Source: an uncultured Candidatus Saccharibacteria bacterium
GTDB lineage: Bacteria; Patescibacteriota; Minisyncoccia; Phycocordibacterales; UBA9973
DNA: 64,000 nt
Reading direction: 5' to 3'
NCBI GenBank assembly: GCA_964554645.1
Contig: CAZKPK010000003.1
Span: 4,256-68,255, forward strand
Notes under the pieces: generated by a model
Told to the model about the DNA's origin: nothing
Databases searched by the model: none
What the model saw: only the letters and a program-made list of their open reading frames with translations
Position numbers and translations under genes: made by a program
Shown here: one piece after another, positions 681 through 50,175 of the stretch
How positions within the stretch are numbered: the stretch's first letter is position 1
Layout: every line of letters begins with the position of its first letter

Positions 681-714
681 ATACTCAAATTATGCTATCG
701 CGGAATTTGAGTAT
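681..714. repeat. palindrome ATACTCAAATT-N12-AATTTGAGTAT overlapping the start codon of the 692 gene
   Basis: Perfect 11-bp arms; ATG at 692 lies inside the element. Confidence 0.7.
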
Positions 715-1192
715 TGGAGATAAAATTTTAAAACTTTTACTTGAGCCGACACACCGATATAAAGGCATACCGGTCAGTATGTTTGGCTTACCCATTTTAT
801 TTCCATACAAAAAGCAATCCATCTATAACACTCTTTCAAGATTAAATAAAGACGGTTATATATCAAAAGAAAATGATTATATATGCTTACTTCCAAGAGG
901 AAGAAAATATGTCGAAAATAAAAAAGTAAGATTTGCAACATTTGATTCACCTTATAAAAAAGAGTCTTCAAAAAATTTACTTTTAATGTTTGATATTCCA
1001 GAAGTCAAAAAAGCAGAAAGGGAATGGTTTCGTTTCCATTTGCGGCTGTTCAGTTATGAAATGATTCAGAAAAGTGTTTGGGTCGGACCGTCTCCACTGC
1101 CGAAGGATTTTATAGATTATGTAAAAGAAATCAAGCTTCAGGAATGCATTAAAACCTTCAAACTGGCTAAACCTTACAATACTCAAACTTAG
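692..1192 (+). CDS. winged-helix transcriptional regulator with C-terminal Cas2/VapD-like domain (PaaX-like architecture)
   Basis: N-terminal wHTH-like region. C-terminal LLLMFDIPE..KAEREWFRFHLRLFSYEMIQKSVWVGP fits the Cas2-like beta-alpha-beta pattern. Start and stop codons both lie inside flanking palindromes. Confidence 0.45.
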   Translation: MLSRNLSIGDKILKLLLEPTHRYKGIPVSMFGLPILFPYKKQSIYNTLSRLNKDGYISKENDYICLLPRGRKYVENKKVRFATFDSPYKKESSKNLLLMFDIPEVKKAEREWFRFHLRLFSYEMIQKSVWVGPSPLPKDFIDYVKEIKLQECIKTFKLAKPYNTQT

Positions 1193-1213
1193 CGATAGCA
1201 GAAATTGAGTATT
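1178..1213. repeat. inverted partner palindrome AATACTCAAACTT-N-AAATTGAGTATT overlapping the stop codon of the 692 gene
   Basis: Close reverse complement of the 681-714 element with the same GCGATAGC core; the TAG stop at 1190-1192 lies inside it. Confidence 0.7.
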
Positions 1214-6863: not shown

Positions 6864-7193
6864 ATGGATTATGTAATTTCTGGCAAGGTAATAAAGGGCG
6901 ATGGATATGGCAGGAAAATTGGCTTTCCGACAATGAACTTGGAAGCTAATACAAAAGAATTGCCAAAAGCCGGAGTCTATGCGGGTATAGGGAATCTAGA
7001 CGGCATAGATTATCGAACAGGTATTGTTGTCGGTCCGGAGGATAAACTCGAAGCGCATTTGATAGGGTATAATGGAGACGCTTACGGAAAACAAGTAACT
7101 TTAAAAATAGAGAAATTCATAAGAGAATATAAGAAATTTAATACTGAAGAAGAATTGATTATTCAAATAAAAAAAGATTTAAAATTATGCTAA
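6864..7193 (+). CDS. riboflavin kinase domain protein
   Basis: GYGRKIGFPTMNL motif typical of the RibF kinase domain / monofunctional riboflavin kinase. Confidence 0.7.
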   Translation: MDYVISGKVIKGDGYGRKIGFPTMNLEANTKELPKAGVYAGIGNLDGIDYRTGIVVGPEDKLEAHLIGYNGDAYGKQVTLKIEKFIREYKKFNTEEELIIQIKKDLKLC

Positions 7194-8092
7194 AAGATTA
7201 CACAGGCCCTATTTTTATTCTTATCGCGGCAACGCTCTGGGCATTTGACGGTCTCATTCGACAGCATTTATATTCGCTTCCGCCCATTACCATCATATTT
7301 TTTGAACATCTTTTTGGTCTTATAATTCTGTCTCCTTTCGTTTACAAATATTTTTCTCAGACAAAACTTTCAAAAAGGGATTGGTGGCTTGTTATTTTGA
7401 TATCAATTTTAAGCGGCCTCTTCGGAACATTATGGTTCACGACCGCGCTCGGCAAAGTCCACTTCATTTCCATCTCAGTCGTATTCCTCTTGCAAAAACT
7501 TCAGCCGATATTTGCTATTATAACCGCGAGAATTTTTTTGAAGGAAAAAATGGATGGGCGATATATAAAATGGGCTGTGCTCGCAATTATCGCGGCCTAT
7601 TTTGTGACCTTCAAAAATGGATATGTAAATTTTGCGACGGGTGAGGGAACAATCATTGCGGCTCTGTACGCGCTTGGCGCGGCTTTTGCTTGGGGTTCTT
7701 CAACGACATTTTCAAAAATGCTTTTAGGAAAAATAGATGCCAGACTCTCCACCTTTTATAGATTTTTAGTCACAACTGCAATAGTTCTTCCAATCTTGTT
7801 TTTATCAGGAAAAGGACCAAGTTTATCCGCGCCAACTATTTCTCAATTCGGCTGGCTAGCGCTCATTGCCGTCTCGACTGGCATGGTTGCTTTGCTTATT
7901 TATTATAAAGGGCTGGCAAGGACCCCGGTGCATATTTCCACAATTTTGGAGCTGACTTTTCCTTTCATTGCCATTTTTCTGGATATGATAGTGAATCATA
8001 CTGTACTTTCTTTCACTCAATGGGTTGCGGCTTTAGTGCTTGTGTTTGGTATTTACAAGATTGCCAGATTGCGTGAGAACGTTTCTTTGTGA
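7187..8092 (+). CDS. EamA/DMT-superfamily transporter
   Basis: About 10 predicted TM helices in two repeated halves. Confidence 0.65.
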   Translation: MLKDYTGPIFILIAATLWAFDGLIRQHLYSLPPITIIFFEHLFGLIILSPFVYKYFSQTKLSKRDWWLVILISILSGLFGTLWFTTALGKVHFISISVVFLLQKLQPIFAIITARIFLKEKMDGRYIKWAVLAIIAAYFVTFKNGYVNFATGEGTIIAALYALGAAFAWGSSTTFSKMLLGKIDARLSTFYRFLVTTAIVLPILFLSGKGPSLSAPTISQFGWLALIAVSTGMVALLIYYKGLARTPVHISTILELTFPFIAIFLDMIVNHTVLSFTQWVAALVLVFGIYKIARLRENVSL

Positions 8093-8101
8093 AATTAATA
8101 A

Positions 8102-8135
8102 TTACTTAACTCTACCGGTCGGAAAAGTTAGGTAA
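8102..8135 (+). repeat. family C hairpin TTACTTAACT-N14-AGTTAGGTAA, 9 nt upstream of the 8145 start codon
   Basis: Second copy at 48361-48394 sits upstream of purQ in the same hairpin-TTTAAAAAG-ATG arrangement. Confidence 0.7.
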
Positions 8136-8144
8136 TTTAAAAAG

Positions 8145-8483
8145 ATGAAACAAACAGATTTGTTAAAGAAAAAATGTATATCGTGCGAGGGGAAAAGCAT
8201 TAAACCTCTAGATAGAGCTGGCGCGCAGGATTATTTAGATGAAACACCGGGTTGGGTTTTAGATAAAGATGTAAAGAAAATTTCCAAAGAATTTAAATTT
8301 AAGGATTTTATCGGAGCGATAAATTTCGTGGAAAAAGTGGCCGAGATTGCCGAAATGGAAGGGCATCATCCGGATATTCATATTCACTACAACAAAGTCT
8401 TGCTCGAACTCTGGACACACGCCATCGGCGGGCTTTCTGAAAACGACTTCATCGTCGCCGCCAAAATCGACGCACATAATTAG
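8145..8483 (+). CDS. pterin-4a-carbinolamine dehydratase
   Basis: EGHHPD...W.TH..GGLSE.D...A.KID signature of the PCD/DCoH family. Confidence 0.8.
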   Translation: MKQTDLLKKKCISCEGKSIKPLDRAGAQDYLDETPGWVLDKDVKKISKEFKFKDFIGAINFVEKVAEIAEMEGHHPDIHIHYNKVLLELWTHAIGGLSENDFIVAAKIDAHN

Positions 8484-9290: not shown

Positions 9291-9337
9291 AAACTTATAA
9301 CTCCACAATAGCAGAAACTTAAGTAAAAACACAAATT

Positions 9338-9367
9338 CCATAATAGCAACGGTCGTTGCTATTATGG
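9338..9367. repeat. family A intergenic palindrome CCATAATAGCAACGG-CCGTTGCTATTATGG type (copy 1)
   Basis: 14-bp perfect arms between convergent genes. Confidence 0.8.
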
Positions 9368-9589
9368 TAACAAGATTAAAAGTAAAAAATACAAAAGGGC
9401 GGGTCGTTTTCTTAAACGAGCACCGCCCAAGTTGTGCGTTTGGCAAGAACGCGATGTTAGGCCTTCTTTCTTTCCCCACAATGGACGCAGTAGAAGCCGG
9501 GGACACATCCCCAGTCACCCCTGGGCCACCTGATGCGATCTTCCTTGGTTTCTTTCCATATGTGTTTTCCCGTTGGGGATTTTTTACAT

Positions 9590-15070: not shown

Positions 15071-15082
15071 TTGAGATAACAC

Positions 15083-15106
15083 AATAGCAACGGCCGTTCC
15101 TATTAT
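15083..15106. repeat. family A palindrome (copy 2, AATAGCAACGGCCGTTCCTATTAT)
   Basis: Sequence match to the other copies. Confidence 0.7.
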
Positions 15107-15119
15107 ACTATGATGCAAA

Positions 15120-16676
15120 GTGAAACCAAAATACGCTCTGGATTCCGGAATAATTATTTATTGCAACAAATGTTGGTGGAGCGACAAATGGGATGCAAAA
15201 AATTATGGAATGGATTATGATTTTTCCAGACCATTTTTTGTCCAATTCAGAGAACTCATAGGCAAAGTCCCGCATATTTCTGTGGTCAATGACGATGGCA
15301 TCGCGAGCGTAAACTGCGAATATACCCACGACTGGTGGTTTTCTAAGAATTGTTATATGAGTTTTTCCGGCTGGTATGTGGAAAATGTAATGTATAGCTT
15401 CTTTATGTTAGCTGGCCGAGACATGATGGACTGCATGAATATCAGATCAAAAAACGAATGGCTATATGAGTGCATGATTGCCAGAAGTTGCTATCAATTA
15501 AAATATTCTCAATTCTGCTGGGCTTGCATTGATTCACAATTTTTATTTGACTGTAGAAACTGTTCTAACTGCTTTATGTGTGCCGGTCTCAGGGGGAAAA
15601 AATATTATTTTAAAAACAAAGAATATTCAAAAGAAGAATATCAAAAGATTTTAGAAAGTTATCAACTTAACACATTTTCCGGAGTGGAAAAAGCGCAAAA
15701 AGAATATGATGAATTTATTTTGAAATACCCTCGAATGCACTTGCATTCCATTCAGAACGTTAATTGCATTGGTGATGTTGTCTCACTTTCTAAAAATGTG
15801 AAATATTGCTTTGTAGCCAGAGAATGTGAAAATTGTAGGTATTGCGATTTTTTTTCAAATGATAAAGAATGTTATGACCTAGTAATGACTGGCGAGACCT
15901 CAGAAAGTTATGAAGGAGTCGTAGTTGATCAATCTCAACTTAATCTTTTCGGAATTTTTTCCGTTAAAAGCCAAGATATAAAATATATGCAACATTGCCA
16001 TAATTGTAAGCATTGTTTTGGTTGTGTCGGGCTTCGCGATTCAAATTACTGCATTTTTAATAAGCAATATACTAAAGAAGAATATGAAAAATTGGCACCG
16101 AAAATTATAGAGCAGATGAATAACATGCCTTTTATAGACAAAATTGGAAATAAATATAAATATGGAGAATTTTATCCGATAGAACTTTAACCTTTTGGCT
16201 ACAATGAAACTTTAGCCATGGAAGATATAGTTTTATCAAAAGAAGGGGCTCTTAAAAGGGGATTCAACTGGCAGAACAATGTCCAACAAACTACTGGCAA
16301 AGAAACACTGAAAGCAGAAAATATTCCTGACAGCATAAATGAGATAGGGGATTCAATATTAAATGAAGTGTTTGCCTGCGTTGATTGTAAAAGAAATTAT
16401 AAAATTATTCCGAATGAACTTATTTTTTACAGAAAAATGAAAATTCCTATCCCACGGAGATGTTTCTATTGTCGGCATGCGAATAGATTAAAGAAAAGAA
16501 ATCCCTTTAAACTTTGGCATAGGACTTGTATGTGTGGTTCGACGGGTTCACCACAGGCGACAACGGATCATTCCCATGGAGAAAATAGATGCGAAGTGGA
16601 ATTTGAAACTTCCTATGCTCCAGACCGTCCGGAAATAGTGTATTGTGAAAAATGTTATCAGCAAGAAATATATTAG
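15120..16676 (+). pseudogene. degraded paralog of the 48403-50139 Cys-rich repeat protein: N-terminal zinc ribbon missing, single in-frame TAA at 16188-16190
   Basis: ORFs 15120-16190 and 16218-16676 are in the same frame and align end to end with the 578-aa protein (CRNCSNCFMCAGLRGKKYYFKNKEYSKEEY; C-terminal FKTSYAPDRPEIVYCEKCYQQEIY). They are separated only by a TAA. A family A repeat sits where the N-terminal 70 codons would be. Confidence 0.55.
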
Positions 16677-24378: not shown

Positions 24379-24397
24379 TTTATGATAAAATGAAGCT

Positions 24398-24634
24398 ATG
24401 AAAAATATTAAAAAAATACCAGCCCAAGGCTGGTCCGCCTCAGGCGGAAAAAATAAAAAAAGCGGCTTTTTAAAATTAATCATTGTTATAATCATTGCTC
24501 TTCTTTTGATGCGTTATTTTCATATTACCATATCCGACATTTTAAATTATTTTCAGCTTTCTTGGTCTGAAGTTATCGATTGGCTCAAAAAGGCTCTAAA
24601 CTGGCTCAAAGATTTATTTAATAGTGTGAAGTAA
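24398..24634 (+). CDS. small membrane protein; its N-terminus is encoded by a family D palindrome
   Basis: One TM segment; N-terminal PAQGWSASGGKNKK derives from the repeat. Confidence 0.3.
   Translation: MKNIKKIPAQGWSASGGKNKKSGFLKLIIVIIIALLLMRYFHITISDILNYFQLSWSEVIDWLKKALNWLKDLFNSVK
24419..24452. repeat. family D GC-rich palindrome (degenerate copy)
   Basis: CCAGCCcaaGGCTGG + TCCGCCTCAGGCGGA + A-run. Confidence 0.6.
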
Positions 24635-24649
24635 GATTTAAAATTGGAA

Positions 24650-24724
24650 CACAGATTGTGCGAGCATTAAAATAATGTCGCACAATCTGTGTTATCTTTT
24701 AGGTCGTATATATACGACCTAAAA
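24650..24724. terminator. two adjacent strong hairpins (CACAGATTGTGCGA..TCGCACAATCTGTG and TTTTAGGTCGTATA/TATACGACCTAAAA) between convergent genes
   Basis: 15-bp and 14-bp stems flanked by T- and A-runs; likely bidirectional. Confidence 0.65.
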
Positions 24725-24746
24725 GATATATTGTGCGACGTGGATT

Positions 24747-26418: not shown

Positions 26419-26892
26419 TTAAATTTTTTCCACCATTAGTTTAAACGAAGATTTTTTACCTTTTCCGCCAGAGGCGGACCCGCCTTGGGCGGGGATTTCT
26501 ACTGGAATTTCATGTTCCCCTATCGCTTTAATTGGTTTTTCTAAAACAATAAATTCCTCGCCAATATCCGCGTGATTTTGTTCTTTCATCGCTTCGATAA
26601 TTTCTTTCTTGTGAATGGCGGAAAAAAGATGTCCCAGCTCATTTGCTTTTCCTTTTAGGGTAATAGTTTTGCCTTTTATTTCTTCCAAATTTTTTAGGAG
26701 CAAACTTTCCCGCACTTCCCTTTCAATCGTGATCTCCTTTTTGCGCATTTCAAGCTCTGCCACAGCCTTTGGTGTGGCGACGACAGCCAATTTTTTAGGC
26801 AACAAAAAATTTACCGCATAGCCGTCGTTGACTTCCTTTAGGTCATACTTTTTCCCCACTCTTGGTATATCTTGTAAAAATATTATTCGCAT
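26419..26892 (-). CDS. rplI: 50S ribosomal protein L9; C-terminal region carries a family D repeat-encoded insert
   Basis: MRIIFLQDIPRVGKKYDLKEVNDGYAVNFLLP N-terminal domain and L9 C-terminal domain; AQGGSASGGK is encoded by the palindrome at 26461-26497. Confidence 0.85.
   Translation of the reverse strand: MRIIFLQDIPRVGKKYDLKEVNDGYAVNFLLPKKLAVVATPKAVAELEMRKKEITIEREVRESLLLKNLEEIKGKTITLKGKANELGHLFSAIHKKEIIEAMKEQNHADIGEEFIVLEKPIKAIGEHEIPVEIPAQGGSASGGKGKKSSFKLMVEKI
26461..26497. repeat. family D GC-rich palindrome TTTTCCGCCAGAGGCGGACCCGCCTTGGGCGGGGA
   Basis: CCGCC-N3-GGCGG twin hairpins; lies inside the rplI 3' coding region. Confidence 0.75.
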
Positions 26893-30542: not shown

Positions 30543-30584
30543 CCATAATAACATAATAGACACGGCCGTTGTCATAGTGTTATC
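30543..30584. repeat. family A palindrome (copy 3, ..ATAATAGACACGGCCGTTGTCATAGTGTTAT..)
   Basis: Downstream of the purB stop. Confidence 0.65.
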
Positions 30585-33313: not shown

Positions 33314-34282
33314 TTAGATTGCGTATTTTTTTAGATTATTTTTGATTCTTTTTTCAATATTTCCGGTTTCGGCTACAAAAGGGATTCCGGTAATTTGCTC
33401 ATATATTTGTATATATCGGCGGGATAATTCCGCAATCATTTCCGGCGGAGCCGGAGGCATCACTTTGTCTTTATATGGATCAGAATGTTCTTTGAACCAT
33501 AAACGTAGAAATTCTTTGTCAAAATTTTCCGGCTCTAAGCCTTTATTTATTCTATCTTGATACGAATTCGCTTGCCAATATCTGGAAGAATCGGGCGTAT
33601 GAATCTCGTCTATCAGCACCACCTCTCCATTTTTCGCGAGTCCAAATTCATATTTTGTATCCACTAAAATCAATCCTTTCTTTAAAGCGATTTCCTGTCC
33701 ACGGGCAAAAAGTTTCAAAGCTGCGCTGGAAACTTTTTGCCAAACTTCCGGCGTCATTATTTTTTCCTCTAAAATAATTTTACTAGTCAGTGGTCTGTCG
33801 TGGGCTTCAAATTTTGTGGTAGGTGTAAGGACTGGCTTGTTTAGTTTTTGATTTTTATGCATGCCGTCGGGCAGAGTAAAATCTCCAAAATTTCTTTCTC
33901 CTTTTTGATACAAGGTCCAAAGAGAAGTTCCGGTTACTCCAGTAATATAACCTCGCGCCACCATTTCTACGGGAATTACCGCGCATTTCTTACCCACTAC
34001 CACATTCGGATCGGGAAAATCTAGAGCATGATTTTTCACGATATCTTTGGTGTTTTCAAACCAAAACTTGCTGATTTGCGTCAGCACTTGCCCTTTGCCA
34101 GGTATTAATGCTAAATTGCGATCAAAAGCCGAGTATCGGTCTGTGGAAATCAGAATGATTTTATCACCTTGGCTATAAACATCTCTGACTTTGCCAGTAT
34201 ATTTTTCTCCTAGGTTCAAATTTTTTCCGCCCGAGGCGGATCCGCCTTTGGCGGAGAAATTTGTTTTTTCAAGTATATTCAT
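33314..34282 (-). CDS. purC: SAICAR synthetase; the called N-terminus likely over-extends into a family D repeat
   Basis: KVRDVYSQGDKIILISTDRYSAFD... SAICAR synthetase core. The true start is probably the TTG near 34206 (MNLGEKYTGKVRDVY); the upstream AKGGSASGGK is repeat-encoded. Confidence 0.85.
   Translation of the reverse strand: MNILEKTNFSAKGGSASGGKNLNLGEKYTGKVRDVYSQGDKIILISTDRYSAFDRNLALIPGKGQVLTQISKFWFENTKDIVKNHALDFPDPNVVVGKKCAVIPVEMVARGYITGVTGTSLWTLYQKGERNFGDFTLPDGMHKNQKLNKPVLTPTTKFEAHDRPLTSKIILEEKIMTPEVWQKVSSAALKLFARGQEIALKKGLILVDTKYEFGLAKNGEVVLIDEIHTPDSSRYWQANSYQDRINKGLEPENFDKEFLRLWFKEHSDPYKDKVMPPAPPEMIAELSRRYIQIYEQITGIPFVAETGNIEKRIKNNLKKYAI
34221..34258. repeat. family D GC-rich palindrome TTTTCCGCCCGAGGCGGATCCGCCTTTGGCGGAGAAA
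   Basis: Lies between purM and the purC core. Confidence 0.75.
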
Positions 34283-37899: not shown

Positions 37900-37956
37900 T
37901 ATGCTGAAATACTACCATAATTAAATTTTTACTCAAATTAAAAAAAATAATACTAG

Positions 37957-37989
37957 CATAATGGCAACAGCCGTTGCCATTAGTGAAAA
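37957..37989. repeat. family A palindrome (copy 4, TAATGGCAACagccGTTGCCATTA)
   Basis: 10-bp perfect arms. Confidence 0.7.
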
Positions 37990-44249: not shown

Positions 44250-44266
44250 ATTTAAATTTAGTAATG

Positions 44267-44296
44267 CCATAATAACAACGGCCGTTGCTATTATGG
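44267..44296. repeat. family A palindrome (copy 5, CCATAATAACAACGGCCGTTGCTATTATGG)
   Basis: Lies between convergent purA and purD. Confidence 0.8.
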
Positions 44297-44304
44297 TATC
44301 TTCT

Positions 44305-47547: not shown

Positions 47548-47549
47548 AA

Positions 47550-48350
47550 TTATTTTCCGCCAAAGGCGGATCCGCCTTGGGCGGAAAAGTATTCAACTGC
47601 GTTTTTAAAAATTTGAAGCCCTTTTCCCTCTTTTGAAACTTTTTTATTCCCACCAGAGGAACGGGCAAGCATTTGCCACATCGGACTTTGGTGAGAAAAC
47701 ATTGCCCGTTCCGGATGAGGCATCATTCCCAAAACTCTTCCATTATAGGCTAAAACTCCCGCAATGCAAAAGTCTGAGCCATTTGGATTATATTCTAAAT
47801 TTTGAAATTTACAAATTTCTCCTTTTATATAAATGAAAGCTGTTTGGTTATTTTTCTTCAAATTTTTATATCCTCCTGCGCCTATCACATAACGTCCTTC
47901 GCCATGCGCTATCGGGAGCGATATTTTTTTGATTCCCTTCAGCCAGGGGCTATTTCCAATCGACTCTAAGTCGACCCATCTATCAATATATTTGCCATTT
48001 TTATTGTAAGTCAAAGCCCCCGGCAGAATTCCTAAATTAGTCATAATTTGAAATCCATTGCAGATGCCTATGGCCAGAGTGTCGCGCGATAAAAATTCCG
48101 CTAGTTCTTTTGCCAAATGATTTTTTAATTTATTAGCGTAGGCTTTCCCGCTGCCAGTATCGTCGCCGTAAGAAAATCCTCCCGGGAAAGCCAAAATCTG
48201 GTATTCAGACAGCATTTTTGGTTTGGCAATGAGATCATTGATATGCACGATGTCCGCGTTTCCCCCAACCGACTCAAAAGCGAATTTTGTTTCTTCTTCG
48301 CAATTGAGCCCGTAGCCGGACATTATTATAACTTTTGGTTTATTTTTCAT
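47550..48350 (-). CDS. purQ: FGAM synthase glutaminase subunit PurQ; C-terminal tail encoded by a family D repeat
   Basis: GICNGFQ, HGEGR and MPHPER motifs; ends ...YFSAQGGSAFGGK*, which is repeat-derived. Confidence 0.8.
   Translation of the reverse strand: MKNKPKVIIMSGYGLNCEEETKFAFESVGGNADIVHINDLIAKPKMLSEYQILAFPGGFSYGDDTGSGKAYANKLKNHLAKELAEFLSRDTLAIGICNGFQIMTNLGILPGALTYNKNGKYIDRWVDLESIGNSPWLKGIKKISLPIAHGEGRYVIGAGGYKNLKKNNQTAFIYIKGEICKFQNLEYNPNGSDFCIAGVLAYNGRVLGMMPHPERAMFSHQSPMWQMLARSSGGNKKVSKEGKGLQIFKNAVEYFSAQGGSAFGGK
47553..47588. repeat. family D GC-rich palindrome TTTTCCGCCAAAGGCGGATCCGCCTTGGGCGGAAAAG
   Basis: Clearest copy; inside the purQ 3' end, 3 nt before the purF start. Confidence 0.8.
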
Positions 48351-48360
48351 CTTTTTTAAA

Positions 48361-48394
48361 TTACCTAACTCTACCGGTCGAAAAAGTTAAGTAA
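48361..48394 (-). repeat. family C hairpin (copy 2), 10 nt upstream of the purQ start codon on the transcribed strand
   Basis: On the minus strand it reads TTACTTAACT-N14-AGTTAGGTAA-TTTAAAAAAG-ATG, the same as copy 1. Confidence 0.7.
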
Positions 48395-48402
48395 TTATAT
48401 AT

Positions 48403-50139
48403 TTAATAAATTTCTTGCTGATAACATCTTTCACAATAAACTATTTCAGGGCGATCTGGAGTATAGCTGGTTTTAAATTCTACTTTACATTTTTCTTGTC
48501 CATGAAAATGATTTTCTTTTTTACACATACAAATTCTATCCCAAAGCTTTAAGGGATTCCTTAAATTGATCCGCTGATAATGCCTGCAATTCGGGCATAA
48601 TCTAGGCAGAGGCAAGTTCATTCTTTTATAAAACTTGAATTCTTCCGGAATAATTTTAAAGGCTTCGGTGCACTGATCTTTACATTGGCCACTGTGCCCG
48701 CAAGCAATTACTTTATTCACTATATCATCTTTTATATCTTCAATATTATCTAGTATATTTTTATTTTCTATATCAATTTTATAATTTCTTTCTTCCGTAT
48801 TTTGCCAAGAATATCCCTGTTTTAAGGCTTCTTCCTTGGTTAAGGGAAAATATTCTTGCGCAATTGTTTCATTATAGGCAAATGGCGAAAGCTCGGACGG
48901 AAAAAATTCTCCGTATTTATAAACTCTTCCCTTCCTATCTACATAGGGTATTATATTCATCTGTTTTATAATTTTTGGCAAAAGTTCTTCATATTCTTCT
49001 TTCGTATATTGTTTGTTTAATATGCAGTATTGTTTTTTACGCAAACCTTCACAACCAAAAATATTTTTGCAGTCTCGGCATTCCTCATTATATCTGGTAT
49101 CTTGGTTGAAAATGTTTCTCATCCCAAAAGCCATATTTGATCCACCAAACCCGTTAGTGATTTCATAAACAAGTTCACTGTTCCAACCTTGAAATGAGGT
49201 GTCGTAAGCATCCTTGGCGTGATTTCTGATATAAAATAAATATTTTGAGTCTTCTGTCTGACCAGAGCTGAATGAATAGTGAGTATTGCGTGCTTCGGAC
49301 AAATCATCTCCATCTGAGGCGACTGATTTATAAATGCGGGCATATCTATGAGGTAAAGTTAATTCTAATTCTTCTAATTTTTTCAGAAACTCAAGATGTC
49401 TTTTATGGCTTCCCTTATTTTCTTTTATAAAGTTACCGTATTCCTCTTTTGAATGTGGTTTGTTAAAAATATAATATTGTTTATTTACTAGCCCGACACA
49501 ACCGAAACAATTCATGCAATTTCGGCAATCGATCAAATAAGAACTGTCCACACAATCAAAAGAATATCTGCTAAAAAATAATTTATTTGTTCTCATGCAT
49601 TCAAAATTCTCATAACTGAATTCATTTTTTTCGCAAAAAGCTACATCTAAAGAATCACGAGAGTCTCTGACTTGATTTCCAAAATAAACTCTTTCATTTC
49701 CTTTTCCCCCGAATAATAAATAACATTCTTTAAAATCCAGACCGTAATTGCAATAATCGCTTAATACAAAATTATCTCTGTATAAATTTGCTCTCGGGAC
49801 TGTTCTCTGGAGTGATTGAAATTGAGTGAAGAATGGGATTGAAAAATCATAATCGCGTTTATAACTCATTACATCCCATTTGTCTGAAAACCAACAATCA
49901 TAACAATAAACAATATATGGGCGTTCTTTATGATATAAACCTATAATTGATTTTTGACATAAGGCGCATTCTCGTTTGTAAAATACTCTGTTGTTTCTAA
50001 ACAGTAATCTTCTTTGGAATCTACACTCCGGACAGAATGTCGGCGGAGGAACTTTTAGTTTTTCATAAAAATTAAAATCTTCCGATTCGATGATGAAATC
50101 TTTTTGGCAATTTTTACAGATTTTTTCTTTATTACTCAT
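48403..50139 (-). CDS. cysteine-rich repeat protein with N- and C-terminal zinc-ribbon modules; unknown function; embedded in the purQ-purL interval
   Basis: Many CxxC pairs; internal repeats CRNCMNCFGCVGL..Y.I.NK.Y.KEEY; terminal modules F.I..E.F.FY.K...P.P..CP.CR. Confidence 0.6.
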   Translation of the reverse strand: MSNKEKICKNCQKDFIIESEDFNFYEKLKVPPPTFCPECRFQRRLLFRNNRVFYKRECALCQKSIIGLYHKERPYIVYCYDCWFSDKWDVMSYKRDYDFSIPFFTQFQSLQRTVPRANLYRDNFVLSDYCNYGLDFKECYLLFGGKGNERVYFGNQVRDSRDSLDVAFCEKNEFSYENFECMRTNKLFFSRYSFDCVDSSYLIDCRNCMNCFGCVGLVNKQYYIFNKPHSKEEYGNFIKENKGSHKRHLEFLKKLEELELTLPHRYARIYKSVASDGDDLSEARNTHYSFSSGQTEDSKYLFYIRNHAKDAYDTSFQGWNSELVYEITNGFGGSNMAFGMRNIFNQDTRYNEECRDCKNIFGCEGLRKKQYCILNKQYTKEEYEELLPKIIKQMNIIPYVDRKGRVYKYGEFFPSELSPFAYNETIAQEYFPLTKEEALKQGYSWQNTEERNYKIDIENKNILDNIEDIKDDIVNKVIACGHSGQCKDQCTEAFKIIPEEFKFYKRMNLPLPRLCPNCRHYQRINLRNPLKLWDRICMCKKENHFHGQEKCKVEFKTSYTPDRPEIVYCERCYQQEIY

Positions 50140-50175
50140 AATAGTATAATAGACACGGCCGTTGCTATTGTGCTA
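50136..50175. repeat. family A palindrome (copy 6, ..ATAATAGACACGGCCGTTGCTATTGTG..)
   Basis: Downstream of the purL stop. Confidence 0.65.

What the first reader, a model, noticed from the sequence alone, without database searches (positions are those of the whole stretch)
48361..48394. Family C element: identical hairpin + TTTAAAAAG + ATG arrangement upstream of the PCD gene and purQ
Copies at 8102-8135 (plus strand) and 48361-48394 (minus strand) both read, on the transcribed strand, TTACTTAACT-14 nt-AGTTAGGTAA followed 9-10 nt later by the start codon. One gene is pterin-4a-carbinolamine dehydratase and the other is purQ. The stems are identical, including a T-G wobble at the same position. 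The 14-nt loops, with an ACCGGT core, are reverse complements of each other. There is no Shine-Dalgarno, so the hairpin lies at or overlapping the transcription start. This may be a shared cis-regulatory site linking pterin and purine genes: an operator for a palindrome-binding regulator, or a 5' RNA structure.
Basis: seen in the sequence. Interest (0 to 1): 0.6.

Follow-up and report, generated by a model that had tools for sequence, protein, structure and literature searches.

The report
Conserved palindrome: likely PaaX-like repressor site
The two identical "hairpins" in front of the pterin and purine genes are copies of a 34-bp palindrome found across Parcubacteria-type (CPR) bacteria. It always brackets the gene of a small PaaX/Cas2-like DNA-binding protein, so it is most likely that protein's binding site placed over leaderless promoters, and not a special pterin–purine switch or an RNA structure.

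Summary
Two copies of TTACYTAACT-N14-AGTTARGTAA lie at 8102-8135 and 48361-48394, 9 and 10 nt upstream of the PCD and purQ start codons (0.01 expected by chance). They belong to a widespread family: 91 distinct copies in about 150 Patescibacteria loci, always 10-14-10 with a CGRYCG centre. 39 of the 91 bracket one conserved gene, a 201-aa winged-helix plus Cas2-like (PaaX-family) protein lying between exoX-like and rmuC. 29 of 30 such genes have a 5' copy, usually 28-30 nt before the ATG and over the -35. All 31 have a 3' copy that contains the stop codon. Other paralogues, including window 692..1192, are bracketed by their own palindromes. Genes here lack Shine-Dalgarno sites and carry a -10 box 5-8 nt before the ATG, so they appear leaderless. 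In both window copies the right arm plus flank forms such a -10 (TAATTT). Best reading: an operator for that PaaX-like protein, whose cognate gene is not in the window. The pterin–purine link is not supported. Five PCD orthologues lack the site, the purQ site is kept in one relative only, and downstream genes are heterogeneous. An RNA role is not supported, since there is no strand bias and no terminator features. Binding is untested.

The parts
8102..8135 (.). Family-C palindrome, copy 1 (10-14-10; complementarity extends to 8100-8137 through AA/TT)
   Evidence: exact match, 0.01 expected by chance. Same architecture as 91 distinct copies in Patescibacteria loci.
8133..8138 (+). Putative -10 hexamer TAATTT (last 3 nt of the right arm plus 3 flank nt), 6 nt before ATG 8145; predicted leaderless start
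   Evidence: Inferred. The TANNNT-plus-5-8-nt-plus-ATG signature is present at 21 of 48 window genes against 10% of control ATGs. The same geometry occurs at L004, L045, L115 and L117.
8145..8483 (+). Pterin-4a-carbinolamine dehydratase gene, downstream of copy 1
   Evidence: Pfam Pterin_4a 5.7e-32.
7187..8092 (+). EamA-family transporter gene; its stop lies 9 nt before copy 1
   Evidence: Pfam EamA 7.6e-37. In relative L019 its stop overlaps the PCD start, and in L159 the gap is 6 nt.
48361..48394 (.). Family-C palindrome, copy 2 (complementarity extends to 48359-48396)
48358..48363 (-). Putative -10 hexamer TAATTT, 7 nt before ATG 48350
   Evidence: Inferred, on the same basis as for copy 1.
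47550..48350 (-). purQ, downstream of copy 2
   Evidence: Pfam GATase_5 3.3e-72. 100% identical to MBI2627611.1 PurQ.
48403..50139 (-). Unknown 578-aa Zn-ribbon-rich protein (X578) between purL and purQ; its stop lies 8 nt before copy 2. This family recurs next to family-C elements elsewhere.
   Evidence: No Pfam or NCBIfam hit. Homologues have the element 10-16 nt upstream or 8-12 nt downstream in L045, L071, L077, L107 and L117.
692..1192 (+). Paralogous PaaX_M/Cas2-like winged-helix gene (166 aa). It is not the cognate regulator of family C.
   Evidence: Pfam PaaX_M 6.5e-11. 25-31% identity to family-C-associated proteins.
681..714 (.). The paralogue's own 34-nt 10-14-10 palindrome, 5' copy (ATACTCAAAT TATGCTATCGCGGA ATTTGAGTAT). 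It contains the ATG, and its left arm supplies TATACT as a -10.
1179..1212 (.). The paralogue's own palindrome, 3' copy; it contains the TAG stop

Best explanation
The element is a double-stranded DNA binding site (operator) for a conserved, probably dimeric, winged-helix plus Cas2-like protein of the PaaX family. That protein is about 201 aa and is usually mis-annotated as 'Cas2'. It is encoded elsewhere in Nomurabacteria/Paceibacteria genomes, between exoX-like and rmuC. In these organisms most transcripts appear to be leaderless, with a -10 box 5-8 nt before the ATG and no Shine-Dalgarno. At PCD and purQ the palindrome spans about -43 to -10 of such a promoter, and the end of its right arm plus the flank forms the -10 (TAATTT). 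A bound protein would therefore block RNA polymerase and repress the gene. E. coli PaaX works this way at its own promoter. Shown: the family, its geometry, its near-obligate bracketing of the regulator gene, its fixed spacing to that gene's promoter, the leaderless signature, and the lack of strand bias. Inferred: that the protein binds the site, that binding represses, and that the window's genome encodes the cognate protein. The two window sites are lineage-specific acquisitions. They are not an ancestral pterin-purine regulon.
For: (1) 91 distinct copies with identical 10-14-10 geometry and a CGRYCG centre occur in Patescibacteria loci. The conserved unit is just the 34 bp plus AAA/TTT. 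(2) 39 of the 91 copies abut one gene family. Among 31 distinct full-length genes, 29 of 30 assessable have a 5' copy. 30 of 31 have a 3' copy at N14 spacing, and the exception, L020, has one at N16 spacing. (3) The 5'-copy-to-ATG distance is 28-30 nt in 19 of 29 cases. TATAAT lies 6-8 nt before the ATG, so the right arm lies over the -35. (4) The protein matches PaaX_M at 2.7e-20, Cas2 at 3.8e-5 and TIGR02277 PaaX residues 39-137 at 1e-8. The best structural match of the AF2 model is E. coli PaaX 8a39 at 1.5e-5, followed by Cas2 proteins. (5) E. coli PaaX binds a widely spaced inverted repeat, TGATTC-N27-GAATCA, and autorepresses by excluding RNAP (PMC9493321). (6) Other paralogue groups are bracketed by their own, different palindromes: window 692..1192; L077; L133, L144, L074 and L095; L043. 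This is a protein-specific site code. (7) Leaderless signature: TANNNT 5-8 nt before the ATG in 21 of 48 genes against 10% of controls (p = 1.6e-9), and SD-like motifs in 1 of 48. The short-distance class, 9-16 nt to the ATG, recurs at 9 sites. (8) No RNA strand preference: the sense strand is more stable in 19 copies and the antisense in 22. No terminator-like features and no Rfam family.
Against: No binding data exist. About one third of solitary copies lie between convergent genes, where there is no promoter to control. The universal 3' copy over the regulator's own stop codon is also not a promoter site; I can only suggest an auxiliary operator, a repression loop or a roadblock. The genes downstream of sites have no common function. 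The -10 proposed for the two window sites (TAATTT) is weak and has no recognisable -35. The cognate regulator gene is not in the window or its 67-kb contig, and I could not check the rest of the MAG. The N-terminal half of the structure model has low confidence (pLDDT below 50 for residues 4-62). A complete 34-bp site sits inside about 50 nt of DNA that relatives lack. That looks like copy-paste and not de novo evolution of a site.
Confidence: 0.6

Rival explanations
1. RNA-level hairpin in polycistronic transcripts. The 34-40-nt stem-loop would sit between the upstream stop (8-9 nt before it) and the downstream ATG (9-10 nt after it). It could act as a 3' stabiliser or terminator for the upstream gene. 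It could also bring stop and start together, so that ribosomes re-initiate without a Shine-Dalgarno.
For: Both window copies fold at -12 to -13 kcal/mol on the transcribed strand, and copy 2 is much weaker on the other strand (-5.5). Many copies start 0-12 nt after a stop codon. Symmetric short flanks (8-12 and 9-13 nt) recur in tandem-gene contexts: window, L045, L071, L107, L115 and L117. One copy-specific compensatory arm change was seen, at L004 6155.
Against: There is no strand bias over 44 copies (19 vs 22). There is no T-run or G+C-rich stem, and the terminator scan found nothing. The flanking A/T bases pair with each other, so they do not leave a free U-tract. Single-arm variants (16) far outnumber compensated ones (2, against about 1 expected). 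Copies also lie between divergent genes, upstream of both promoters, as at paaX-like/rmuC. Sequence conservation across orders, and the obligate link to one DNA-binding protein gene, are not expected of a generic hairpin. No Rfam match was found.
Confidence: 0.15
2. A REP/MITE-like palindromic element that spreads by copy-paste into gene junctions. The flanked PaaX/Cas2-like gene would be its partner, analogous to REP-RAYT. Alternatively, solitary copies would be footprints left after loss of a bracketed gene copy. The effect on neighbouring genes would be incidental.
For: There is presence/absence turnover between close relatives. EamA and PCD overlap or are 6 nt apart in L019 and L159, but are 52 nt apart in the window. 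The X578-purQ junction carries family C, another palindrome or nothing in different lineages. L019 and L049 have the element 3' of the M1 peptidase gene where the window has none. Copies occur in tandem, convergent and divergent contexts. The two window copies share arms, the AA/TT extension and the TTTAAAAA flank, as do L117, L071, L107 and L028. The gene is bracketed by direct copies, as RAYT genes are bracketed by REPs.
Against: Copy number is low, about one exact copy per 40-100 kb (3 on a 354-kb contig and 4 on a 144-kb contig). The sequence is conserved across Nomurabacteria, Paceibacteria, Taylorbacteria and Wildermuthbacteria, whereas REPs are species-specific. The bracketed gene sits in a stable syntenic locus (exoX-like / paaX-like / rmuC in more than 30 loci) and is 75-86% identical across genera. 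It has no transposase or HUH domain. There are no target-site duplications, no conserved flanks beyond about 40 bp and no copies in 2.9 million viral contigs.
Confidence: 0.15
3. A chromosome-organising site analogous to parS/ParB: a conserved palindrome bound by a conserved protein, placed anywhere in the genome, including inside the end of the protein's own gene. It would have a structural role and not a transcriptional one.
For: The site and the protein are conserved to an unusual degree across genera. There are few copies per genome. Positions do not depend on promoter context, and one copy lies inside the protein's own coding end. This resembles the parS site within B. subtilis spo0J, which I cite from general knowledge. 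Neighbours are often DNA-metabolism genes: rmuC, exoX-like, dnaX and smc.
Against: The spacing to the regulator's own promoter is fixed at 28-30 nt. A recurrent 9-16-nt class sits directly on leaderless promoters. Both features point to transcription. The protein has no ParB/CTPase or SMC-loading domain. Clustering near an origin could not be assessed.
Confidence: 0.08

Closest known systems
E. coli / Pseudomonas PaaX repressor and its operators (TGATTC-N27-GAATCA)
   Same: The regulator has an N-terminal winged helix and a central Cas2-like dimerisation domain: Pfam PaaX_M, and top Foldseek hit 8a39. The operator is a long, widely spaced inverted repeat that overlaps promoters. A site lies in the regulator's own promoter, which implies autorepression by RNAP exclusion (PMC9493321).
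   Different: The C-terminal PaaX_C ligand-binding domain is missing: the protein is 201 aa and scores 34.9 bits against the 264.55 cutoff of TIGR02277. There are no paa catabolic genes nearby. The site is 10-14-10 with a conserved CGRYCG centre. A second copy always overlaps the regulator's stop codon. The promoters are leaderless. Sites are scattered in front of unrelated housekeeping genes.
REP elements and their RAYT transposases
   Same: Both involve short imperfect palindromes in intergenic junctions, a protein-coding gene bracketed by copies of them, and presence/absence differences between related genomes.
   Different: The protein is not an HUH/Y1 transposase. Copy number is tens, not hundreds. 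Copies are solitary and not paired as REPINs. The sequence is conserved across orders and the bracketed gene sits in a stable syntenic locus.
Auxiliary-operator / DNA-loop repressors (lac O1-O2, gal, deo)
   Same: Two copies of the same operator lie a few hundred bp apart. One is at the promoter and one inside or at the end of a coding region.
   Different: Here the loop would enclose the regulator's own whole gene (about 640 bp). The distal site also supplies the last roughly ten codons and the stop. Looping is purely inferred.
CRISPR repeats with Cas2 (because the protein is usually annotated 'CRISPR-associated endonuclease Cas2')
   Same: A repeat of about 34 bp that is partly palindromic lies next to a protein with a Cas2 fold.
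   Different: There is no array: two copies lie about 640 bp apart and bracket the gene, and the other copies are solitary. No short spacers are present. No cas1 appears among the conserved neighbours (exoX-like and rmuC). The database name is misleading.

Membership tests
PaaX-family repressor/operator system | Regulator with an N-terminal winged helix plus a central Cas2-like (PaaX_M) dimerisation domain | tested here: met
   PaaX_M 2.7e-20, Cas2 3.8e-5. TIGR02277 positions 39-137 align at 1e-8. Foldseek top hit is E. coli PaaX 8a39 at 1.5e-5 over 135 columns. The winged-helix half of the model has low confidence.
PaaX-family repressor/operator system | C-terminal PaaX_C domain that senses phenylacetyl-CoA; score above the TIGR02277 equivalog cutoff | tested here: not met
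   The protein ends at residue 201, right after the Cas2-like domain. No PaaX_C hit. 34.9 bits against a cutoff of 264.55.
PaaX-family repressor/operator system | Operator is a widely spaced inverted repeat overlapping the promoter, including the regulator's own promoter | tested here: met
   By position only. The 10-14-10 palindrome lies 28-30 nt before the ATG in 19 of 29 cases, over the -35 of a TATAAT-plus-6-8-nt-plus-ATG promoter. In the window it overlaps the putative -10 of PCD and purQ.
PaaX-family repressor/operator system | Physical binding of the protein to the site, with repression relieved by a ligand | not testable with these tools
   Needs EMSA, footprinting or DAP-seq, and reporter assays.
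REP / RAYT | The bracketed gene encodes an HUH (Y1) transposase | tested here: not met
   Only PaaX_M/Cas2-like domains were found by Pfam, NCBIfam and Foldseek.
REP / RAYT | High copy number (hundreds per genome), often as inverted pairs (REPINs); sequence is species-specific | tested here: not met
   3 exact copies on a 354-kb contig, 4 on a 144-kb contig and 2 in this 64-kb window. Copies are solitary. Arms are identical across several candidate phylum-level groups.
Intrinsic (Rho-independent) terminator | G+C-rich stem followed by a run of T on the transcribed strand | tested here: not met
   The terminator scan found no site at either copy. The stems are A+T-rich. The flanking TTT pairs with the upstream AAA. 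There is no sense-strand bias.
Known structured RNA (Rfam 15) | Match to a curated covariance model at the gathering score | tested here: not met
   Only LOOT RNA (59743-59853) and one tRNA were found in the window; nothing at the palindromes.
CRISPR array | Tandem repeats separated by short unique spacers, with cas1/cas2 adjacent | tested here: not met
   Copies are solitary, or two copies lie about 640 bp apart around the gene. The conserved neighbours are exoX-like and rmuC.
MITE | Terminal inverted repeats around an internal sequence, with target-site duplication and conserved full-length copies | tested here: not met
   Alignment of six copies from one genome shows conservation confined to the 34 bp plus or minus 1-3 nt, with no direct duplication of the flanks.

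The most novel reading that the evidence does not exclude
The 34-bp palindromes may be portable 'promoter plus operator' cassettes for leaderless genes. They would be copied into tight gene junctions by a palindrome-directed mechanism that involves the Cas2-fold protein whose gene they bracket. The invariant neighbours rmuC, a gene linked in E. coli to inversions at short inverted repeats (general knowledge), and an ExoX-like exonuclease might also take part. Each paralogue of the protein would maintain its own palindrome family. This would be a previously undescribed way for ultra-small CPR genomes to rewire transcription, and a Cas2-fold protein acting on palindromic DNA outside CRISPR.
Probability: 0.12. 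Interest if true: 0.8.

Novelty: new variant of a known kind. Interest (0 to 1): 0.55.

Why it matters
Almost nothing is known about gene regulation in the Candidate Phyla Radiation, because the organisms are uncultured and their regulators are mostly unannotated or mis-annotated. This analysis pairs a highly conserved small DNA-binding protein, usually labelled 'Cas2', with a precise 34-bp site. It shows that the site lies on leaderless promoters, and that paralogues carry their own site families. That gives a directly testable regulator-operator code (EMSA, DAP-seq, metatranscriptome 5' ends). It also gives a way to predict regulons in Parcubacteria-type genomes, and it corrects a systematic annotation error. 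It removes a tempting but unsupported idea, a dedicated pterin-purine co-regulation. The unexplained 3' copy over the regulator's stop codon, and the insertion-like appearance of complete sites between genes that overlap in relatives, are the parts that could lead to new biology.

Tried and rejected
(1) 5' UTR RNA structure or riboswitch-like element. Rejected because there is no Rfam hit, the predicted starts are leaderless and there is no sense/antisense stability bias.

(2) Intrinsic terminator. Rejected because there is no T-run and no G+C-rich stem.

(3) Selection for a hairpin longer than the element. Complementarity of the flanks beyond AAA/TTT equals the partner-shuffled control, 4.06 vs 3.99 pairs per 10 nt. 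Only two copies (L014, L127) extend by 9-10 bp.

(4) Compensatory evolution at the variable arm position. 2 double variants were seen against about 1 expected, and 16 single variants. This gives no signal.

(5) The regulator is encoded in the window. tblastn found only a 25-31% identical paralogue, which has a different palindrome.

(6) A conserved regulon member at PCD. Five orthologous loci lack the site.

(7) Phage or mobile-element origin. No match in viral contigs.

(8) The D1 palindromes of the window as a family shared with relatives. No copy was found in any other locus, so I could not link D1 to a paralogue.

(9) Finding the cognate gene in the source MAG (GCA_016186455.1). An exact look-up of the translated purQ ORF failed, but the same sequence taken as P0121 gave the contig. 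The cluster look-up returned no accessions for the candidate regulators, so this stays unresolved.

(10) Sequence search of the PDB gave only marginal hits. The link to PaaX came from Pfam and from the fold search.

(11) Five literature searches found no description of this palindrome family, of its link to the PaaX-like gene, or of leaderless expression in Patescibacteria.

Full report
**1. The observation**

Both copies exist exactly as described.

- On the transcribed strands they read AA-TTACTTAACT-[14 nt]-AGTTAGGTAA-TT.
- They are followed by TAAAAAG-ATG (PCD, 8145) and TAAAAAAG-ATG (purQ, 48350).
- The 14-nt centres, CTACCGGTCGGAAA and TTTTCGACCGGTAG, are reverse complements at 13 of 14 positions.
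- On the + strand the two copies are 31/34-identical direct repeats.
- No further copy exists in the window with up to 3 mismatches. Chance expectation is 0.01.
- Pfam confirms Pterin_4a and GATase_5/purQ. It identifies the upstream genes as an EamA transporter and an unknown 578-aa protein (X578) lying between purL and purQ.
- Each palindrome fills a 52-nt gap between two same-strand genes. It starts 9 and 8 nt after the upstream stop.

**2. A large family**

I scanned one representative genome per species for TTACYTAACT-N12-16-AGTTARGTAA. This returned 59 loci.

- About 40 loci are from Patescibacteria. They include Nomurabacteria, Paceibacteria, Taylorbacteria and MAGs labelled Saccharibacteria.
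- Nearly all of these have N14 and a CGRYCG core, and several genomes have multiple copies.
- Hits outside this phylum have other spacings and no common centre. They look like chance inverted repeats.
- A metagenome scan added 90 loci.
- After removing duplicates there are 91 distinct elements.
- Within one genome the conserved unit is just the 34 bp, plus a weak AAA/TTT extension.

**3. The hallmark association**

39 of the 91 elements abut one gene, a protein of about 201 aa.

- Among 31 distinct full-length genes, 29 of 30 assessable have a copy upstream. The distance to the ATG is 28-30 nt in 19 of 29.
- 30 of 31 have a copy at N14 spacing that overlaps the 3' end. It supplies the last codons (..LPNSxGRKS) and the TAG/TAA stop. 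The one exception has N16 copies on both sides.
- Both copies have the same orientation relative to the gene.
- The locus is syntenic in more than 30 loci: exoX-like (convergent), then the gene, then rmuC (divergent).
- The protein is 75-86% identical across many genera. There are 1197 homologues, variously annotated 'Cas2', 'repressor' or 'PaaX family'.
- It matches Pfam PaaX_M (2.7e-20) and Cas2 (3.8e-5), and positions 39-137 of the PaaX equivalog model. It lacks PaaX_C.
- An AlphaFold2 model has pLDDT around 80-88 for the Cas2-like half and is poor for the N-terminal half. Its best match is E. coli PaaX (8a39, 1.5e-5), followed by Cas2 structures.
- E. coli PaaX binds TGATTC-N27-GAATCA and represses its own promoter by excluding RNA polymerase (PMC9493321).

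**4. A family-wide rule**

- The window has no orthologue of the 201-aa gene.
- It does have a 25-31% identical paralogue at 692..1192 (PaaX_M 6.5e-11).
- That gene is bracketed by a different 34-nt 10-14-10 palindrome, at 681-714 (holding the ATG) and 1179-1212 (holding the TAG).
- Other paralogue groups in the fetched loci have palindromes of their own near the gene. L133 and L144 have one at each end. L077 has a clear 3' copy and a degenerate 5' copy. L074 and L095 have one on the 5' side. L043 has one at each end, with arms nearly identical to family C.
- This is what co-evolving regulator-operator pairs would look like.

**5. Promoter context**

- In the window only 1 of 48 ATG-start genes has an SD-like motif.
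- 21 of 48 have TANNNT ending 5-8 nt before the ATG, against 10% of control ATGs (p = 1.6e-9).
- 13 of 48 match TATAAT at 5 or more of 6 positions, against 3.3% of controls.
- The same pattern holds at genes next to the element in other genomes.
- Transcripts are therefore probably leaderless.
- At the regulator's own promoter the right arm covers the -35.
- A second recurrent class has the ATG 9-16 nt after the arm. Members are L004, L045, L071, L077, L107, L115 (enolase), L117 (purQ) and both window copies.
- In this class the end of the arm plus the flank (GGTAA|TTT) makes a weak -10, 6-7 nt from the ATG.
- The window palindromes thus span about -43 to -10 of the predicted PCD and purQ promoters.

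**6. What is not supported**

- PCD: in relatives L019 and L159, EamA and PCD overlap or are 6 nt apart. In L156, L157 and L158, PCD has an ordinary TAAAAT or TATAAT promoter. None of the five has the element.
- purQ: L117 has the same X578-element-purQ arrangement (d = 9). L060-62 carry a different palindrome at that junction. L064 and L065 have none. L063 lacks X578 altogether.
- Conversely, L019 and L049 have the element 3' of an M1 peptidase gene, where the window has none.
- Genes downstream of other copies are heterogeneous. They include enolase, nitroreductase, an MBL-fold protein, RelA/SpoT, Ddl, RsmI, Asp racemase, DnaX, RmuC and X578 (some were named from sequence by eye).
- There is therefore no conserved pterin-purine regulon.
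- RNA-level function also lacks support:
  - no Rfam family;
  - no terminator features;
  - the sense strand is more stable in 19 copies and the antisense in 22;
  - flank complementarity does not exceed a partner-shuffled control beyond AAA/TTT;
  - compensated arm variants are no more frequent than expected.

**7. What remains unexplained**

- About a third of solitary copies lie between convergent genes.
- The 3' copy at the regulator gene is universal. I suggest an auxiliary operator, a loop or a roadblock, but this is inference.
- Complete sites sit inside short DNA segments that relatives lack, which suggests copy-paste.
- In both window copies the C-to-T arm variant is in the promoter-distal arm, as in 7 of 7 variant-bearing promoter-proximal sites.
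- The centre is flipped between the two window copies. Relative to the downstream gene, the CT..CGGTCG..AAA orientation predominates 18:7, and copy 2 is in the minority.
- Template switching within quasi-palindromes could produce such flips. This rests on general knowledge and was not tested.

**8. Verdict**

The feature is real and non-random. It is a member of a conserved Patescibacteria palindrome family and is most likely the operator of a truncated PaaX-like (winged-helix plus Cas2-fold) protein acting on leaderless promoters (confidence 0.6). The rivals are an RNA hairpin (0.15), a REP-like spreading element (0.15) and a chromosome-organising site (0.08). Five literature searches found no description of it. 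I rate it a new variant of a known kind, with interest 0.55.

Noticed in passing
window 9334-9369, 15075-15110, 30547-30582, 37952-37987, 44263-44298, 50140-50175: A second palindrome family (D1, consensus CCATAATAGCAACGGYCGTTGCTATTATGG). It has 6 copies in 64 kb and the same ~34-nt layout and CGGYCG centre as family C. At 50140-50175 its right arm supplies TATTAT, then 6 nt, then the ATG of X578. Another copy precedes the X578 paralogue at 15120. It was not found in any of the ~160 related loci, so it is lineage-specific. It may be the site of another PaaX_M paralogue.
   Followed up: partly
window 47548-47588 (also 24411-24451, 26456-26496, 34218-34258): Twin G+C-rich hairpin TTTTCCGCCnnAGGCGGATCCGCCTTnGGCGGAAAA. 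The copy at 47548-47588 lies inside purQ and encodes a C-terminal tail that most PurQ homologues (240-255 aa) lack. The same element is at the same place in L060, but not in L063 or L064.
   Followed up: partly
window 681-714, 692-1192, 1179-1212: A PaaX_M/Cas2-like paralogue gene is bracketed by its own 34-nt palindrome. The start codon lies in the centre of the 5' copy and the stop codon in the centre of the 3' copy. The centres are inverted relative to each other (GCTATCGC vs GCGATAGC).
   Followed up: yes
I did not scan that ORF myself; relatives L157 and L158 have a Trp_repressor gene of the same size near PCD. The repeat is conserved in L019 (6728) and L026 (486). It is probably that regulator's own operator.
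   Followed up: no
whole window: Genome-wide leaderless signature. SD-like motifs occur at 1 of 48 genes. A -10-like TANNNT lies 5-8 nt before the ATG at 21 of 48, against 10% of control ATGs, often with a TGn extension. Two literature searches found no report of this for Patescibacteria.
   Followed up: partly
window 48403-50139 and 15120-16676; L045, L107, L155: X578 is a ~570-aa protein family with repeated Zn-ribbon-like CxxC modules and no Pfam or NCBIfam match. It is inserted between purL and purQ in some Nomurabacteria and absent in others (L063). It forms tandem arrays of 3-4 paralogues elsewhere and is the most frequent non-regulator neighbour of family-C elements.
   Followed up: partly
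window 59743-59853 (-): LOOT RNA (Rfam RF03000), 74.7 bits, E = 3.3e-12.
   Followed up: no
window 24380-24746: A 370-nt gap between convergent genes is packed with palindromes. It holds a D2 twin hairpin (24411-24451), a 16-14-16 inverted repeat (24648-24693) and a perfect 36-nt palindrome (24693-24728).
   Followed up: no
L064 4260-4365 (purQ-purF gap in a relative): A long inverted repeat (~24-nt arms, aaatatttcatgacataactttt...aaaagttatgtcatgaaatattt) occupies the purQ-purF junction. In the window that junction holds the D2 element. Different lineages fill the same operon junctions with different palindromes.
   Followed up: no
L002, L003, L014, L024, L044, L055 (MAG CAZMSV01) and L075, L086, L092, L097: In one lineage all copies are perfect 34-bp palindromes (centre CTGACGRYCGTCAG). 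They lie in larger intergenic regions, and no PaaX-like gene appears in the 8-kb loci. Where the regulator sits in that genome is unknown.
   Followed up: no
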